This document shows positions 7,203 to 14,359 of a stretch of 48,066 nucleotides of DNA, one piece after another (within the stretch, counting starts at the first letter, position 1; every line of letters begins with the position of its first letter). The position numbers and the translations under genes are program-made. The notes beneath the pieces are model-generated. The model made no database searches, was not told the origin of the DNA, and saw only the letters and a program-made list of their open reading frames with translations. This DNA comes from an uncultured Candidatus Saccharibacteria bacterium. GTDB taxonomy: Bacteria; Patescibacteriota; Minisyncoccia; Phycocordibacterales; XYD1-FULL-46-19. The stretch is taken from positions 11,487 through 59,552 of the forward strand of contig CAYHFD010000003.1 in assembly GCA_964355855.1 (NCBI GenBank). Direction: 5' to 3'.

Positions 7203-8297
7203 CTAGGGATGAGTAAGGATGTTTTTAAGTCGTGGATAAACTATAACATCCTTAATATCATCCCTATTTAGGGTCCAGGCAATAAACCTTTCTACCCCCA
7301 AACCAAAGCCCGAGGTTGTGGAATAACTTCTTTGCCTTCTTAAGTTTATATACCATTCATACGGCGCAGAACTTATCCCCTGTCTTTCGAGTGATTCAAA
7401 TATCTGCTTTACATTATTCTGTCTCTCCCCAGCCCCAACAATCTCGCCGCCAAATGATGTTTTTAGGATTGCGGGAAAGATCAGGTCTGAATTTATAACT
7501 TTATTAGGATTTTTCTTGTGGGGCTTTTGATAGAATGCCGCCCTATCTCTATCATAATTATTTATCCAAATAGGAGTACTGGTTTTTAAAATCTTCATCA
7601 ATTCAAGCTCGCCTTTGCTAGAAATATCTCTTCCATGAGCAGTTTGATTTGTATATTTTTCAAATCCACTTTCGATAAGCAAACCAAAAGCTTCATCAAA
7701 CTCTATCTCAGCAAATTTATTTGTCTTCAAGAGATCTTCTAATTTCTGAATCGTGACTTCATAGTCCGCGCTGATCAGCTTAAGAATCGCCTTTTGGGAA
7801 AGCATTACCTTCGCAAGATGCCTAACATACCCCTCAACTTGTGGCTTAAGATCTTGTAATGTTCCTTTAATTTCTGCCTCACAATGAAAGAATTGGTTCA
7901 GGTGACGTTTATCAGGATTCTCTCCCCTTAAAGAAGGCAAGTAGCAATAAACCTTTTCTATATCATTCATCAATATAGGCTCAAAACCAAATTGAGAGCT
8001 ATCAACAAGATAGGTGTTTAAATCTCCAAACTTAATCTCAATAGCCTCACTATCTGATCCGGGGCCCATAGGAGAAGAAACGCTTGGTGTCAGCATAAAA
8101 AGGTCCACATTGTATGCTTTTTGAATATCAGACCAATAATGATCCGACGCCATCTTGATATGATGGCGCAGAATCATTAATTCCCTAAAGTACTTTGATT
8201 TACCTACTTGAAGGTAGTGCGTATCAGGATCATATTTGGGCAGCGGAAATGGAACAATTTTTCTAGAGAATATTTTTTGTAATATCTTTTTGAACAT
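7203..8297 (-). CDS. Class II aaRS catalytic-core paralog (AsnRS/AspRS-like; archaeal-type asparagine synthetase A-like), no anticodon-binding domain
   Basis: Motif 2-like LRGENPDKRHLNQFFHCEAEI and motif 3 SGFGLGVERFIAW. 364 aa is too short for a complete AsnRS/AspRS. Confidence 0.7.
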   Translation of the reverse strand: MFKKILQKIFSRKIVPFPLPKYDPDTHYLQVGKSKYFRELMILRHHIKMASDHYWSDIQKAYNVDLFMLTPSVSSPMGPGSDSEAIEIKFGDLNTYLVDSSQFGFEPILMNDIEKVYCYLPSLRGENPDKRHLNQFFHCEAEIKGTLQDLKPQVEGYVRHLAKVMLSQKAILKLISADYEVTIQKLEDLLKTNKFAEIEFDEAFGLLIESGFEKYTNQTAHGRDISSKGELELMKILKTSTPIWINNYDRDRAAFYQKPHKKNPNKVINSDLIFPAILKTSFGGEIVGAGERQNNVKQIFESLERQGISSAPYEWYINLRRQRSYSTTSGFGLGVERFIAWTLNRDDIKDVIVYPRLKNILTHP

Positions 8298-8300
8298 ACA

Positions 8301-9368
8301 TTATTTTATAAAAGTCTCTTTCACCTCAAATAGATTCTTCTCGCTATCCAATAGTACCTTCACGCCCAACGGAAGAGTAATCATGGGTGTGGTGTGTCCT
8401 ATGTCTACCCCATAGAGAATCGGGTATTTAGCCCCTTTCGTATAAGCCTCAATAAGTTCTTTTATCTTCTTAAGGTTTTCTTCGCTCTGACCATAAGAGC
8501 GACCGATCACTAATCCCTTAATGGCTTTAAAAACGTCCAGGTTGTATAGATCCGCAAGATTAGTGTCAAGATCCGACATAGAAATCCCCTCTCCTGGCTT
8601 GCGACCTTCAGGTAAATCCAAGAATAAAACCTTACCCTTAAAATCATTCCAATATTCTGTTCCCGCCAGATGGTTAATCGAAGCAGGCGTGCCGCCAAAT
8701 ATTTCCGCAGCTGCCTTCCCTTTTCTCCACCATTCAAAACCTTTGTTCTTACGATAACTTCTTTGTTTTTTTACATCTTCCTTTTTAAACCAGTCCAAAA
8801 AATCATCAGTCCATTCTTCAGAGTCAGCAATCTTGCCAATCTCTCCCTCTACAAGGGCCTTTTTAAAATATTCCTCATTGTATTTATTGAGTTGCGGAAA
8901 TTCACCAAATTCTGGCAGAACCGAAGGCCCGTAAAATGTTACCAAACCCGTCTTTTTATAGATTGCATGGTGGAGAACGGTTATATCAGAATATCCCAGA
9001 AAGATCTTCGGGTTCTTCTTGATTAGTTTCCAATCTAGAAATTTCAATAATTGATTTGAATGATTGCCGCCAATGGTGCAAATTATAGCTTTTACATCTT
9101 TATCGGCAAAAGCTAAATGCAGGTCTTGAACTCTTTCCTCGATCGATCCTGAAACATAACCACCGTTCTTCAGAGCATTAGGTTCAAATTTAACTTTAAA
9201 ACCCAAAGTCTCTAACGCCTTTTTAGCCTGCTCAATCCTATGCATGGCAAAGGGAGCTAATCCAGATGACGGTGAGACAATGCTGATCAAATCTCCCGAC
9301 TTAATCTTACCCGCTAAAATCTTTTCGACTTTCATGTGGAAATTGATTATTGTTACCCAGTTTAACAT
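8301..9368 (-). CDS. S66 peptidase (LD-carboxypeptidase / MccF-like)
   Basis: VSPSSG, nucleophile context GYSDITVLH, and C-terminal DIGHTTPMITLPLG. The real start may be the internal Met at 9335. Confidence 0.8.
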   Translation of the reverse strand: MLNWVTIINFHMKVEKILAGKIKSGDLISIVSPSSGLAPFAMHRIEQAKKALETLGFKVKFEPNALKNGGYVSGSIEERVQDLHLAFADKDVKAIICTIGGNHSNQLLKFLDWKLIKKNPKIFLGYSDITVLHHAIYKKTGLVTFYGPSVLPEFGEFPQLNKYNEEYFKKALVEGEIGKIADSEEWTDDFLDWFKKEDVKKQRSYRKNKGFEWWRKGKAAAEIFGGTPASINHLAGTEYWNDFKGKVLFLDLPEGRKPGEGISMSDLDTNLADLYNLDVFKAIKGLVIGRSYGQSEENLKKIKELIEAYTKGAKYPILYGVDIGHTTPMITLPLGVKVLLDSEKNLFEVKETFIK

Positions 9369-9394
9369 AAAAGCTAATTTGTTATAATCAAAAC

Positions 9395-10417
9395 ATGGCC
9401 AACCTGAATCCCCACGATATCCTCAATCTGAAGTCTGATTACGGCAAAAGACTTACCCAGGCCATTGAATCTGCTTACAACTTGAGGGTCTTGGATTATT
9501 CACCCATACCAGAGATATCTTTCACCTCCAAAAAAGCCTTAATCACCACCGACCAAGGGGTCCTATTCCTGAAAGAAAAACCATTCTATAGTAAAGGATC
9601 AGGAGAGTTATTTCGCTCCTCCACCTTTCAAGATTACTGCGCAAAAAACTCACAGAGGTTCGTGGGCATCCTAAAGACAAAAGACGGTAGACACTTTCTA
9701 GACTTTGAAGGAAGTATTTATTTTATTACGCCTTTCGCAGATGGAAAAAGTTTTAATGGCAAGACTGAAGATCTCCTGAAAATACTAGCTACGATAGTTG
9801 AGTTACAGCATTTAGGAAAAAAGTACCTGGAAGAAAATACTAACACCAGAGAATACTTACCCGAGAACAAGTCGTACGACATCGTCCTGCCTTTTTCTTT
9901 ACTGGAACCAATGATCACAACCAATGGAGACAGGGAAACGCTAAACAATCTTAAAAAAGCACTTGGGATTTTAATCGAAGAATATAATTCTTTCGCAAAC
10001 ATTGAATACATAATGTCTCATGGCGACTGCATACTGTTTAACTTTCAAATCTCAGGCGAAGTAGCCATTTTACATGACTTCGACAATGCTAAAGTTTTAC
10101 CCAACATCCACGATATAGCTGAATTCTTTGTATCTAGCTGTCTGATAAATTACAGCGGAAGTGTGACAAATCTTAAATTACCAATATTCCTAAGTTGTCA
10201 TAAAGAAACTTCAGATATCATGGCCAAAGAAATATTAAAACATTTAAAAACTGGGGAAGAAAAACTGCTTCCTATTTGTATTGAAATTATTTGGCTGTGG
10301 ACACTTATGCTGTCTGTAATAAAAGAAGACCATAAGATTACAGATCTCGTGCCAGCAATACAGAATATCTCTGAAAGGAAACTTCACGGAGAACTGGTAG
10401 AAATATTTAACTCCTAA
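9395..10417 (+). CDS. APH/choline-kinase-type phosphotransferase
   Basis: Catalytic loop HGDCILFNF and DFDNA. TATAAT (9383-9388) ends 6 nt before the ATG. Confidence 0.7.
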   Translation: MANLNPHDILNLKSDYGKRLTQAIESAYNLRVLDYSPIPEISFTSKKALITTDQGVLFLKEKPFYSKGSGELFRSSTFQDYCAKNSQRFVGILKTKDGRHFLDFEGSIYFITPFADGKSFNGKTEDLLKILATIVELQHLGKKYLEENTNTREYLPENKSYDIVLPFSLLEPMITTNGDRETLNNLKKALGILIEEYNSFANIEYIMSHGDCILFNFQISGEVAILHDFDNAKVLPNIHDIAEFFVSSCLINYSGSVTNLKLPIFLSCHKETSDIMAKEILKHLKTGEEKLLPICIEIIWLWTLMLSVIKEDHKITDLVPAIQNISERKLHGELVEIFNS

Positions 10418-13651: not shown

Positions 13652-13697
13652 GGCAATATTCTACCATATTTACAGAGAATGGCTTTAAATGTCAAAA

Positions 13698-13726
13698 TTG
13701 ATATTAAGCCGTATTAGGGGTAAAAT
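13698..13726 (+). promoter_or_regulatory. Promoter of the histidine-phosphatase gene (leaderless layout)
   Basis: TTGATA-N17-TAAAAT, with the -10 ending 6 nt before the ATG at 13733. Confidence 0.5.
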
Positions 13727-13732
13727 GGGCTC

Positions 13733-14359
13733 ATGAATAGAGTCTTCCTAATCCGCCATGCCGAGAGTGATAGCAATATTGGAACTGTCTTAGAACATCA
13801 AAACTCAATTAAAATTACCCCAGCCGGAAAGAAACAGGCCGAGGAATTGGCCGAGATACTAGAAAAGCCAGACAAAATTATTTGTTCTAGGTATATTCGG
13901 ACGATAGAAACAGCAGAGCCCCTAATTAACAAGTTCTCTGATGCCGAAATTAATCTATGGGTAGACACTCATGAATTTCAGCCCATAAACCCTGAAAGGT
14001 ATCAAAATATCACAACTGAGGAGAGGGATTCTTTACACAGAAAATATTGGCAAAATATTGATCCCCTATACAATGACGGCGGCGAAGCTGAGAGTTTTAA
14101 GGATTTTACAATCAGAGTAAACCTAGCCATACTGAAAATGAAGCAGTTGCAAGGTTTAAATTACATATTTACCCACGGACACTTTATCCGATGCGTCATC
14201 ACACTACTTTCTTATTTTAAAGACTACAATTCTCTTGATAAAACTACCGATTTATATTTGAAGATTATGGAGAAGTTTGAAGAAACCTATCTTAGCGGAG
14301 AATTAAAGATAAAAAATACCGAGATTTTTGAATTGACCGAACTACTTAAAGGCTACTAA
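13733..14359 (+). CDS. Histidine phosphatase superfamily (phosphoglycerate-mutase-like) protein
   Basis: N-terminal VFLIRHAESDSN (RHG motif) and a later THGHFIR. 208 aa. Confidence 0.8.
   Translation: MNRVFLIRHAESDSNIGTVLEHQNSIKITPAGKKQAEELAEILEKPDKIICSRYIRTIETAEPLINKFSDAEINLWVDTHEFQPINPERYQNITTEERDSLHRKYWQNIDPLYNDGGEAESFKDFTIRVNLAILKMKQLQGLNYIFTHGHFIRCVITLLSYFKDYNSLDKTTDLYLKIMEKFEETYLSGELKIKNTEIFELTELLKGY

What the first reader, a model, noticed from the sequence alone, without database searches (positions are those of the whole stretch)
7203..14359. Island pairing two anticodon-domain-less aaRS paralogs (class II and class I) with an MccF-like peptidase and small-molecule tailoring enzymes
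Gene content:
- 7203-8297 has class II motifs 2 and 3 (RGE..RHLNQFFHCEAE, GFGLGVERF) but no anticodon-binding domain.
- 12581-13651 has HIGH-like PHLATAL, KMSKS-like KLSKS and a Zn-type Cys cluster, and is about 170 aa shorter than a class I LysRS.
- Between them are an S66 peptidase of the LdcA/MccF type, an APH-type kinase, a SAM methyltransferase, a Nudix hydrolase and a histidine phosphatase.

MccF is known as the self-immunity enzyme that cleaves aminoacyl-nucleotide antibiotics. Truncated aaRS paralogs are known amino-acid ligases (AsnA, PoxA, GluQRS, MshC). Together this suggests synthesis, modification or detoxification of an aminoacyl-adenylate-like compound. A more mundane reading is Asn synthesis plus cell-wall peptide recycling.
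Basis: partly seen in the sequence, partly recalled or inferred. Interest (0 to 1): 0.66.

Follow-up and report, generated by a model that had tools for sequence, protein, structure and literature searches.

The report
Mobile island with two tRNA-synthetase-like ligases
A 7.5-kb mobile gene cassette in an ultra-small groundwater bacterium combines two truncated tRNA-synthetase-like enzymes with a microcin-C-immunity-type peptidase and nucleotide-tailoring enzymes, and most likely makes or handles an amino-acid-linked nucleotide compound that nobody has yet described.

Summary
7203-8297(-) is an AsnRS-type class II core with no anticodon domain. 12581-13651(-) has no Pfam, NCBIfam or PDB sequence match, but its confident model (pLDDT 94.7) matches class I LysRS and GluRS best, and its HIGH-like and KLSKS motifs are invariant. 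The S66 peptidase belongs to the MccF clade, not LdcA, and keeps the adenine-stacking Trp.

The eight genes recur together, in different orders, in at least five other Patescibacteria lineages (45-74% identity). One copy sits between transposases. In the window, 183-nt structured direct repeats bracket the island.

The conserved core is the AsnRS-like ligase, an MccF-like peptidase and a SAM methyltransferase (14/14 informative loci for the peptidase). The class I-like ligase is an accessory. Elsewhere it pairs with ASCH domains and a kinase.

Best reading (about 0.4): a mobile biosynthesis-plus-self-protection cassette for a tailored aminoacyl-nucleotide. Housekeeping Asn synthesis plus murein recycling is unlikely. 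No product, substrate or exporter is known, so the function is inferred.

The parts
6932..7114 (.). Left copy of a ~183-nt structured direct repeat that brackets the island
   Evidence: about 91% identical to 14396-14578, spacing 7464 nt, the only two copies in the window. One hairpin differs by compensatory changes. Folding z-score is -4.8 / -5.3. No Rfam match.
7203..8297 (-). AsnRS-like class II aaRS catalytic core (364 aa) with no anticodon-binding domain; predicted adenylate-forming ligase
   Evidence: PF00152; motif 2 (R124, E126) and motif 3 (G330-R337) invariant in the family; below all AsnRS, AspRS and AsnA cutoffs; own clade sister to AS-AR-like proteins.
8301..9368 (-). S66 serine peptidase of the MccF clade (likely start 9335, 344 aa)
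   Evidence: B. anthracis MccF-like 4e5s at 7e-65 and E. coli MccF at 9e-50, against LdcA-type at 1e-12 to 5e-16 over the N-terminus only. S127=S118, H325=H311, W193=W186, D251 in place of E243.
9395..10417 (+). Protein-kinase-like (APH/CotS-type) small-molecule kinase, 340 aa
   Evidence: CotS family at 3.5e-7; profile hits to YtaA 2q83 (3e-4) and APH 4pdy (0.06); invariant H209-x-D211-x4-N216 and D228-F-D-N231.
10421..11237 (-). Fe(II)/2-oxoglutarate dioxygenase-fold gene, disrupted here by a +1 frameshift in the T7 run at 10784-10790
   Evidence: an intact 262-277-aa homologue in relatives; invariant H145-x-D147, H231, R240; model pLDDT 87.7; top Foldseek hits are all 2OG oxygenases. The split is present in four independent assemblies.
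11286..12134 (+). Class I SAM-dependent methyltransferase (282 aa)
   Evidence: A methyltransferase accompanies the class II paralog in 13 loci.
12140..12592 (+). Nudix hydrolase (150 aa)
   Evidence: PF00293; best NCBIfam hit is a pyrimidine (d)NTP diphosphatase at 2.5e-10, below cutoff.
12581..13651 (-). Class I aaRS-like Rossmann-fold ligase (356 aa) of an unannotated family; no anticodon-binding domain
   Evidence: more than 500 homologues; invariant GTxINGxPH[IL]GT, TGAKLSKS and CPxC...CxxH; the model matches LysRS-I, GluRS and BshC.
13733..14359 (+). Histidine phosphatase (branch 1), CobC/alpha-ribazole-phosphatase-like (208 aa)
   Evidence: It is also adjacent to the class I-like gene in the ASCH-type locus L178.
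14396..14578 (.). Right copy of the structured direct repeat

Best explanation
The island is a mobile biosynthesis-plus-self-protection cassette for a tailored aminoacyl-nucleotide or aminoacyl-nucleoside small molecule, an analogue of an aminoacyl-adenylate.

Proposed mechanism (inferred unless marked):
- The AsnRS-derived class II core, whose ATP and adenylate site is intact (shown), activates Asp or Asn as an acyl-adenylate. It then either couples it to an amine or turns it into a stable adenylate-like amide.
- The SAM methyltransferase decorates the product. In relatives the 2OG dioxygenase does so too; in this organism it is dead.
- The MccF-type serine peptidase, which keeps the adenine-stacking Trp (shown), hydrolyses the aminoacyl-nucleotide amide. 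This protects the producer or recycles the compound.
- A second module works on the phosphorylated nucleoside part and adds a second acyl or aminoacyl group. It consists of the class I LysRS/GluRS-like ligase, the kinase, the Nudix hydrolase and the His-phosphatase.

The whole cassette moves between Patescibacteria genomes.
For: 1. Linkage. The eight genes recur together in changed order in L081 (74% identity), L176 (51%), L001 (Saccharibacteria, 49%), L003 (Parcubacteria, 45%) and L094 (45%).
2. Core. Every informative locus of the class II family carries an S66 gene within 3 kb (14/14), and 13 carry a methyltransferase.
3. S66 is MccF-type, with Ser, His and W186 conserved. MccF and its B. 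anthracis orthologue hydrolyse aspartyl- and isoasparaginyl-adenylates, whereas LdcA does not protect against McC (PMC8323819).
4. The ligase is Asp/Asn-type, which matches MccF's Asp preference.
5. Sibling islands swap the accessories for an N-terminally truncated RlmN/Cfr-like adenine C-methylase, extra methyltransferases, an asparaginase-like gene or an L-amino-acid ligase. This looks like tailoring diversity.
6. Mobility. L176 is flanked by IS110- and IS3-type transposases. In L090 the trio is inserted between rplB and rpsS. The window island is bracketed by 183-nt direct repeats.
7. Precedent. The ascamycin cluster uses AlaRS-like AcmD and truncated AlaRS-like AcmF, plus the de-aminoacylating hydrolase AcmE, to make an aminoacyl-nucleoside sulfamate (PMC12945691).
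Against: - No exporter, precursor peptide or MccB/ThiF-like enzyme lies in the island.
- No nucleoside-scaffold enzyme is recognised.
- The class II family is very widespread and highly conserved in Patescibacteria (more than 844 clusters, about 60% identity). That would also fit a core physiological role.
- Its sister group scores close to NCBI's 'asparagine synthetase A' model, so plain Asn synthesis cannot be excluded.
- The catalytic Glu of MccF is Asp here.
- The dioxygenase is broken in this organism, so the pathway here may be altered or decaying.
- The physiological substrates of stand-alone MccF homologues are unknown.
- No substrate or product was determined here.
Confidence: 0.4

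Rival explanations
1. RNA (tRNA) modification 'writer-eraser' module. The anticodon-domain-less aaRS paralogs attach an amino acid or acyl group to a nucleoside in tRNA or rRNA, as GluQRS and TmcAL do. The methyltransferases (and RlmN-like enzymes in sibling islands) add methyl groups, and the hydrolases (MccF-like here, ASCH elsewhere) remove the acyl group.
For: - The class I-like model matches GluRS and YadB/GluQRS.
- In Actinomycetota, Bacteroidota and other Patescibacteria the class I-like protein is fused to or followed by ASCH.
- ASCH proteins are N4-acylcytidine amidohydrolases and tRNA ac4C erasers (bioRxiv 10.64898/2026.02.27.708502).
- TmcAL makes ac4C34 by an aminoacylation-like mechanism (PMC11109946).
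- Sibling islands carry an RlmN/Cfr-like radical SAM enzyme, and a methyltransferase with its best partial similarity to CmoM.
- A tRNA-Asn gene lies 800 nt from the island.
Against: - MccF's characterised pocket binds a mononucleotide, not RNA.
- The RlmN-like protein lacks the N-terminal part of the RlmN model.
- Transposase flanks and a patchy, movable location are unusual for tRNA-modification genes.
- A kinase, Nudix hydrolase and phosphatase fit free nucleotides better.
- There is no Pfam hit to the TmcAL family.
Confidence: 0.15
2. Resistance or detoxification island with no synthesis. MccF-like peptidase, APH-like kinase, methyltransferase, Nudix hydrolase and phosphatase each inactivate incoming antimetabolites or antibiotics. 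The aaRS-like cores act as decoys or repair enzymes.
For: - MccF, APH-type kinases, SAM methyltransferases and Cfr-like methylases are all classical resistance enzyme families.
- There is no exporter or scaffold-building enzyme.
- The island is mobile.
- Stand-alone MccF homologues confer McC resistance.
Against: - Strict co-inheritance of the AsnRS-like ligase with S66 and a methyltransferase across lineages points to one pathway rather than a collection.
- The ligases keep intact adenylation motifs, which a decoy does not need.
- The dioxygenase family (16 clusters) appears specific to this island.
Confidence: 0.15
3. Mundane housekeeping. The class II paralog is an archaeal-type (AS-AR) asparagine synthetase, S66 recycles peptides or murein, and the neighbours are unrelated nucleotide-housekeeping genes.
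For: - It has the same core-only architecture as AS-AR and aligns full length to NF005055 (148 bits).
- It is sister to proteins scoring 293 bits against the NF005053 cutoff of 322.
- The family is abundant and conserved in Patescibacteria.
Against: - It scores below every curated cutoff.
- S66 is MccF-type, not LdcA-type.
- Linkage with a methyltransferase and lineage-specific tailoring genes is conserved.
- The locus has transposase flanks, an insertion inside a ribosomal-protein operon, and direct repeats.
- The sister protein L098 itself sits with the same type of methyltransferase and an L-amino-acid ligase.
Confidence: 0.1

Closest known systems
Ascamycin (acm) cluster: AlaRS-like AcmD, truncated AlaRS-like AcmF, hydrolase AcmE (PMC12945691)
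   Same: Two aaRS-like enzymes, one of them truncated, sit with a hydrolase that reverses the aminoacylation and with nucleoside-tailoring genes. The product is an aminoacyl-adenylate mimic.
   Different: AcmF has lost its ATP-binding residues and uses aa-tRNA, whereas both ligases here keep their adenylation motifs. The enzymes belong to other families: AsnRS-like and LysRS-I/GluRS-like instead of AlaRS-like, and an S66 hydrolase instead of an alpha/beta hydrolase. No sulfamate or halogenation genes are present. The host is Patescibacteria, not Streptomyces.
Microcin C (mcc) clusters: MccA/B/C/D/E/F (PMC8323819)
   Same: An MccF-type S66 peptidase with the adenine-stacking Trp, a class I SAM-dependent transferase (compare MccD), Asp/Asn chemistry, and a mobile locus.
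   Different: There is no MccA peptide, no ThiF-like MccB, no MFS exporter and no MccE. An AsnRS-derived ligase takes the place of the adenylyltransferase. The catalytic Glu is replaced by Asp.
Archaeal-type asparagine synthetase AS-AR / NCBI 'asparagine synthetase A' (PRK06462; PDB 3p8t, 1nnh)
   Same: An AsnRS catalytic core with no anticodon-binding domain. It is the nearest clade in the tree.
   Different: Scores of 124-148 bits against cutoffs of 322-389. PDB AS-AR matches only at 2e-7 over the C-terminal third, against 5e-29 for AsnRS. It is always linked to an MccF-like peptidase and a methyltransferase.
GluQRS (YadB), TmcAL, MshC, BshC: class I aaRS-like ligases acting on non-tRNA-3'-end acceptors
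   Same: A class I Rossmann fold with HIGH/KMSKS-type motifs, no anticodon-binding domain, and a Cys/His cluster like the GluRS/YadB zinc site.
   Different: No sequence-level membership in any of these families (no Pfam or NCBIfam hit). The HIGH motif is PH[IL]GT. The family has its own partners: ASCH, an AAA_28 or APH-like kinase, and His-phosphatase, HAD or Nudix enzymes.

Membership tests
Canonical asparaginyl-tRNA synthetase (class IIb) | Class II catalytic core with motifs 2 and 3 (Pfam PF00152) | tested here: met
   93.6 bits against a gathering score of 25. R124, E126 and G330-R337 are invariant in the family.
Canonical asparaginyl-tRNA synthetase (class IIb) | N-terminal OB-fold anticodon-binding domain | tested here: not met
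   Alignment to AsnRS 1x54 starts at AsnRS residue 173. Canonical relatives are 423-470 aa with an N-terminal extension of about 85-100 aa that this family lacks.
Canonical asparaginyl-tRNA synthetase (class IIb) | Score above the NCBIfam equivalog cutoff (TIGR00457 / NF003037) | tested here: not met
   160 against 342.6 and 159.6 against 414.
Asparagine synthetase A, archaeal AS-AR type (PRK06462 models) | Score above the NCBIfam equivalog cutoffs | tested here: not met
   148.3 against 389, 123.9 against 322, 85.3 against 368 and 74 against 309. In the NJ tree it is a sister clade only (no bootstrap).
Asparagine synthetase A, archaeal AS-AR type (PRK06462 models) | Catalyses Asp + NH3 + ATP -> Asn | not testable with these tools
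   Needs an enzyme assay or complementation.
MccF (S66 microcin C immunity peptidase) | Both S66 domains, and closer to MccF than to LdcA | tested here: met
   PF02016 and PF17676. MccF-like proteins match at 7e-65 to 9e-50 over the full length. LdcA-type proteins match at 5e-16 or weaker, over the N-terminus only.
MccF (S66 microcin C immunity peptidase) | Ser-His-Glu catalytic triad (S118, H311, E243 in E. coli MccF) | tested here: inconclusive
   S127 and H325 align. E243 aligns with D251, and E254 lies 3 residues further on. An acidic residue is kept, but not the Glu.
MccF (S66 microcin C immunity peptidase) | Adenine-stacking Trp186 on the catalytic loop | tested here: met
   W193 aligns with W186 of E. 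coli MccF, and the loop is present.
MccF (S66 microcin C immunity peptidase) | Encoded in an mcc-type cluster (MccA peptide plus ThiF-like MccB) | tested here: not met
   All island ORFs are assigned to other families. None has ThiF/E1 similarity.
MccF (S66 microcin C immunity peptidase) | Hydrolyses aminoacyl-nucleotide amides | not testable with these tools
   Needs an assay with Asp-, Asn- or Glu-sulfamoyl adenosine or processed McC.
Class I aaRS superfamily (LysRS-I / GluRS branch) | Rossmann-fold catalytic domain with HIGH and KMSKS signatures | tested here: met
   Foldseek gives 1irx at 9e-9, and 86 PDB hits at E<=1e-3, with class I aaRS and aaRS-like enzymes filling the listed top 50. 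P46, H47 and T50 (PHxxT) and K290-L-S-K293 are invariant. The last His of HIGH is Thr.
Class I aaRS superfamily (LysRS-I / GluRS branch) | C-terminal anticodon-binding domain; membership of a curated LysRS or GluRS family | tested here: not met
   356 aa against more than 500 aa for 1irx. There are no Pfam, NCBIfam or PDB sequence hits, even with a profile.
Fe(II)/2-oxoglutarate dioxygenases | DSBH fold with an HxD...H triad and a 2OG-binding Arg | tested here: met
   Shown for the intact homologue P0241: H145-x-D147, H231 and R240 are invariant, and all top Foldseek hits are 2OG oxygenases. The window copy is frameshifted.
APH/CotS-type protein-kinase-like small-molecule kinases | Catalytic HxDxxxxN and DFD motifs; profile similarity to the family | tested here: met
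   The motifs are invariant. Similarity is weak: CotS family 3.5e-7, YtaA 3e-4 and APH 0.06. A homologue has a weak Pfam APH hit. The similarity scores alone would not settle it.

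The most novel reading that the evidence does not exclude
An AsnRS-derived enzyme provides a peptide- and MccB-independent route to a microcin-C-like, non-hydrolysable aspartyl- or asparaginyl-nucleotide. The MccF-type peptidase is its antidote. 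Together they form a metabolite-based toxin/antidote (addiction, interference or defence) cassette that spreads among ultra-small episymbiotic Patescibacteria. The unannotated class I-like ligase family, which elsewhere is fused to ASCH and sits in defence-island-like regions of Actinomycetota, would be a new kind of ATP-dependent nucleoside or tRNA N-acyl ligase with a built-in reader or eraser.
Probability: 0.15. Interest if true: 0.85.

Novelty: new variant of a known kind. Interest (0 to 1): 0.62.

Why it matters
Patescibacteria are thought to have almost no secondary metabolism. A widespread, mobile cassette built on a re-purposed AsnRS core plus an MccF-type peptidase would be a new way of making or handling aminoacyl-nucleotide antimetabolites. 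It could bear on how these episymbionts interact with hosts, competitors or phages.

The finding also brings up two sizeable enzyme families with no functional annotation:
- A class I LysRS/GluRS-like ligase family: more than 500 protein clusters and 447 genome loci, mostly among Actinomycetota in the loci listed, often fused to ASCH.
- An AsnRS-like core family: more than 840 clusters.

Both add to the list of aaRS paralogs used outside translation. Both are directly testable with standard adenylation and hydrolase assays.

Tried and rejected
- PADLOC scan of all island proteins and an actinobacterial homologue: only generic methyltransferase and Nudix hits, no known defence system.
- Sequence and profile searches of the class I-like family against PDB: nothing significant. 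Only fold comparison worked.
- The 377-440-aa protein that replaces the class I-like ligase in sibling islands looked HisRS-like by eye (GxGYY, DGG, GxGSEL). Support is only a faint PF13393 hit (E 0.045). The PDB sequence and profile searches found nothing relevant.
- The metagenome scan with the class II profile returned only about 9 in-family loci. The rest were canonical AsnRS, so the co-occurrence census is small.
- Rfam search of the flanking repeat: no match.
- The idea that the frameshift in the dioxygenase gene is an assembly error was rejected. It is present in four independent assemblies.
- The idea that the island interrupts purH was rejected. The purH remnant (6010-6616) lies wholly outside the left repeat.
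- Literature searches found no description of an AsnRS-like/MccF-like pairing or of the class I-like/ASCH family. The library is limited to open-access text.

Full report
**1. What is in the window**

Between 7203 and 14359 there are eight intact ORFs and one broken gene.

- 7203-8297(-): a class II D/K/N-type synthetase core (PF00152, 93.6 bits). Its best relatives are AsnRS (1x54, 5e-29). The alignment starts at AsnRS residue 173, so the OB-fold anticodon domain is absent. It scores below every curated cutoff for AsnRS, AspRS and the four 'asparagine synthetase A' models: 160 against 342.6 and 148 against 389.
- 8301-9368(-): carries both S66 domains.
- 9395-10417(+): a protein-kinase-like enzyme. 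The evidence is a CotS family hit at 3.5e-7, profile hits to YtaA at 3e-4 and to an APH at 0.06, and invariant HxDxxxxN and DFDN motifs.
- 11286-12134(+): a class I SAM methyltransferase.
- 12140-12592(+): a Nudix hydrolase.
- 13733-14359(+): a branch-1 histidine phosphatase.
- 12581-13651(-): matches nothing by sequence, even with a profile.

**2. The class I-like protein**

It belongs to a family of more than 500 protein clusters. Invariant motifs are GTxINGxPH[IL]GT, TGAKLSKS and CPxC...CxxH.

An AlphaFold2 model built on 44 homologues is confident (pLDDT 94.7, pTM 0.92). Foldseek against PDB puts class I LysRS (1irx, 9e-9, TMq 0.52) first, followed by GluRS, BshC, GlnRS, MetRS, CysRS and YadB/GluQRS. 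It is a class I synthetase catalytic domain with no anticodon-binding domain and an apparently intact nucleotide site.

**3.

The two overlapping ORFs 10421-10876 and 10782-11237 are one gene, split by an extra T in a T7 run at 10784-10790.

- Relatives encode a single 262-277-aa protein. The family has only 16 clusters in the 5.8-billion-protein database.
- H145-x-D147, H231 and R240 are invariant.
- The model (pLDDT 87.7) matches only Fe(II)/2-oxoglutarate dioxygenases.
- The frameshift is present in four independent assemblies from Hainich groundwater well H52. It is real in this population, so this tailoring step is lost here.

**4. The peptidase is MccF-type**

Full-length matches to the B. 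anthracis MccF-like protein (7e-65), Listeria Lmo1638 and E. coli MccF (9e-50) contrast with N-terminal-only matches to LdcA-type carboxypeptidases (5e-16 or weaker).

Aligned to E. coli MccF:
- S127 aligns with S118, and H325 with H311.
- The adenine-stacking W186 is conserved as W193.
- The catalytic E243 is Asp (D251) here.

According to PMC8323819, MccF cleaves aspartate from processed microcin C. The B. anthracis orthologue hydrolyses isoasparaginyl-adenylates. LdcA does not protect against McC.

**5. Linkage elsewhere**

The same eight genes occur together in:
- L081-L083 (74% identity);
- L176 (51%);
- L001 (a Saccharibacteria MAG, 49%), L003 (Parcubacteria, 45%) and L094 (45%).

Gene orders and orientations differ among these loci.

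From the side of the class II paralog (more than 844 clusters, about 60% identity across Patescibacteria), the invariant partners are the S66 peptidase and a SAM methyltransferase. An S66 gene lies in all 14 informative loci, and a methyltransferase in 13.

The accessory genes vary:
- The class I-like, kinase, Nudix, dioxygenase and His-phosphatase set occurs in six lineages.
- An unannotated 377-440-aa protein occurs in six others, with a second methyltransferase or an N-terminally truncated RlmN/Cfr-like radical SAM enzyme. It is never found together with the class I-like gene.
- L001 adds an asparaginase-like gene and NDK.
- The more distant L098 (36% identity) has the same methyltransferase type plus an ATP-grasp L-amino-acid ligase.

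**6. The class I-like ligase has a life of its own**

Of 447 genome loci, most of those listed are Actinomycetota. There, and in Bacteroidota and some Patescibacteria, the protein is fused to or followed by an ASCH domain. It is preceded by a P-loop AAA_28-like protein of about 200 aa (63 of 80 loci) and an unknown protein of about 313 aa (60 of 80). It often lies next to restriction-modification, Wadjet-like or helicase genes. His-phosphatase, HAD or Nudix genes recur beside it.

ASCH proteins are N4-acylcytidine amidohydrolases and tRNA ac4C erasers. TmcAL is an aaRS-like ligase that makes ac4C.

So each ligase in the window belongs to a family that habitually travels with an amidohydrolase for acyl-nucleoside or acyl-nucleotide amides. 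The AsnRS-like ligase travels with MccF, and the class I-like ligase with ASCH. In the island form, ASCH is absent and MccF is present.

**7. Mobility**

- L176's island lies between an IS110 transposase with a serine recombinase on one side and an IS3-type transposase on the other.
- L090's trio is inserted between rplB and rpsS.
- The flanks of the window and of L081 differ.
- In the window the island is bracketed by two copies of a ~183-nt element (6932-7114 and 14396-14578; about 91% identity; spacing 7464 nt). These are the only copies in the window. The element folds much better than shuffles (z about -5). One hairpin differs between copies by compensatory changes. It has no Rfam match.

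**8. Placement of the class II paralog**

A neighbour-joining tree on 335 core columns, without bootstrap, puts the family in one clade. This clade is sister to short AS-AR-like proteins (L098, L100) and apart from canonical 423-470-aa AsnRS. L098 nearly reaches NCBI's 'asparagine synthetase A' cutoff (293 against 322).

The family is thus an offshoot of the anticodon-domain-less AsnRS/AS-AR branch. It is not a member of any curated housekeeping family. Plain asparagine synthesis cannot be excluded from sequence alone.

**9. Interpretation**

*Shown:*
- both ligases keep their adenylation motifs;
- the peptidase is MccF-type and keeps the adenine-stacking residue;
- the genes are co-inherited and mobile;
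- tailoring content varies between lineages.

*Inferred:* the AsnRS-like enzyme activates Asp or Asn and forms an amide-linked nucleotide-type product. The methyltransferase and dioxygenase decorate it. The MccF-like enzyme hydrolyses it, for self-protection or turnover. The class I-like ligase, kinase, Nudix and phosphatase module supplies or further acylates the nucleoside part.

The closest precedents are the ascamycin cluster (AlaRS-like AcmD, truncated AcmF, de-alanylating AcmE) and mcc clusters (MccD, MccF).

*Against this reading:* no exporter, no scaffold enzyme, the very wide distribution of the class II family, the Glu-to-Asp change in the peptidase, and the dead dioxygenase here.

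I put this reading at about 0.4. The rivals are an RNA-modification writer/eraser module (0.15), a resistance-only island (0.15) and housekeeping Asn synthesis plus peptide recycling (0.10). The remainder is something not yet thought of.

**10. Novelty**

Searches of the held literature found no description of this gene combination or of the class I-like family.

I rate it a new variant of a known kind: aaRS-paralog ligases with a reversing hydrolase in a small-molecule pathway. The substrate and the product are both unknown.

Noticed in passing
window 15165-15493 (-); intron 15206-15458: A tRNA-Asn(GUU) gene is interrupted by a 253-nt group I intron between anticodon nucleotides 35 and 36 (Rfam RF00028, 94 bits). 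The default ARAGORN run missed it; the intron-aware run found it. It lies about 800 nt from an island whose core enzyme is AsnRS-derived. This may be coincidence or a former integration site.
   Followed up: partly
window 6932-7114 and 14396-14578: A ~183-nt highly structured element occurs in two direct copies that exactly bracket the island. One hairpin shows compensatory substitutions between the copies. There is no Rfam match, and it was not found in other loci fetched. It could be an att-like site, a bidirectional terminator module or an unknown ncRNA.
   Followed up: partly
window 6010-6616 (-): A decayed purH (AICARFT/IMPCHase) fragment in several frames, in a stretch of higher G+C (about 46% against 39% in the island), lies just outside the left repeat.
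   Followed up: partly
window 2769-2804, 5330-5376, 6883-6929: A 37-47-nt repeat (about 85% identity) sits upstream of minus-strand genes. It is possibly a shared promoter or 5'-UTR motif.
   Followed up: no
window 15610-15641 / 15946-15977: 32-nt inverted repeats (97% complementary), each internally palindromic, flank the ArsR/MarR-type HTH gene 15686-15952. They are likely operator sites.
   Followed up: no
window 3566-5939: A run of nucleotide-related genes lies just outside the island: an alpha/beta hydrolase, a second Nudix hydrolase, a nucleoside 2-deoxyribosyltransferase-like protein and an NYN-domain protein. An NYN homologue also lies next to the trio in L096 (210-686).
   Followed up: no
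L005-L080 (for example L086 7447-11452, L084 8908-11469): In Actinomycetota the class I-like ligase, with ASCH fused or adjacent, forms a conserved operon with a P-loop AAA_28-like protein of about 200 aa and an unknown protein of about 313 aa. It is sometimes preceded by an HATPase_c_2 protein, and it often lies beside RM, Wadjet-like, Mrr or helicase genes. This could be an undescribed defence-type system.
   Followed up: partly
L089 6663-7985, L090 5851-6984, L091 13112-14245, L093 13903-14988, L096 6366-7562: An unannotated 361-440-aa protein family takes the place of the class I-like ligase in sibling islands. It has motifs reminiscent of HisRS/HisZ (GxGYY, DGG, GxGSEL), but only a faint Pfam hit (PF13393, E 0.045) and no PDB match.
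   Followed up: partly
L090 4152-9068: A five-gene version of the island (two methyltransferases, the 377-aa protein, S66 and the class II paralog) is inserted inside the ribosomal-protein operon between rplB and rpsS.
   Followed up: no
L096 4402-5292, L087 11023-11931: Short radical SAM enzymes inside sibling islands are RlmN/Cfr-like (213 bits against a cutoff of 290) but lack the N-terminal ~68 residues of the RlmN model. They may be a small-molecule adenine C-methylase. L087 also has a divergent class II LysRS-like gene (286 bits against a cutoff of 468) and a PurD-like ATP-grasp gene next to the trio.
   Followed up: partly
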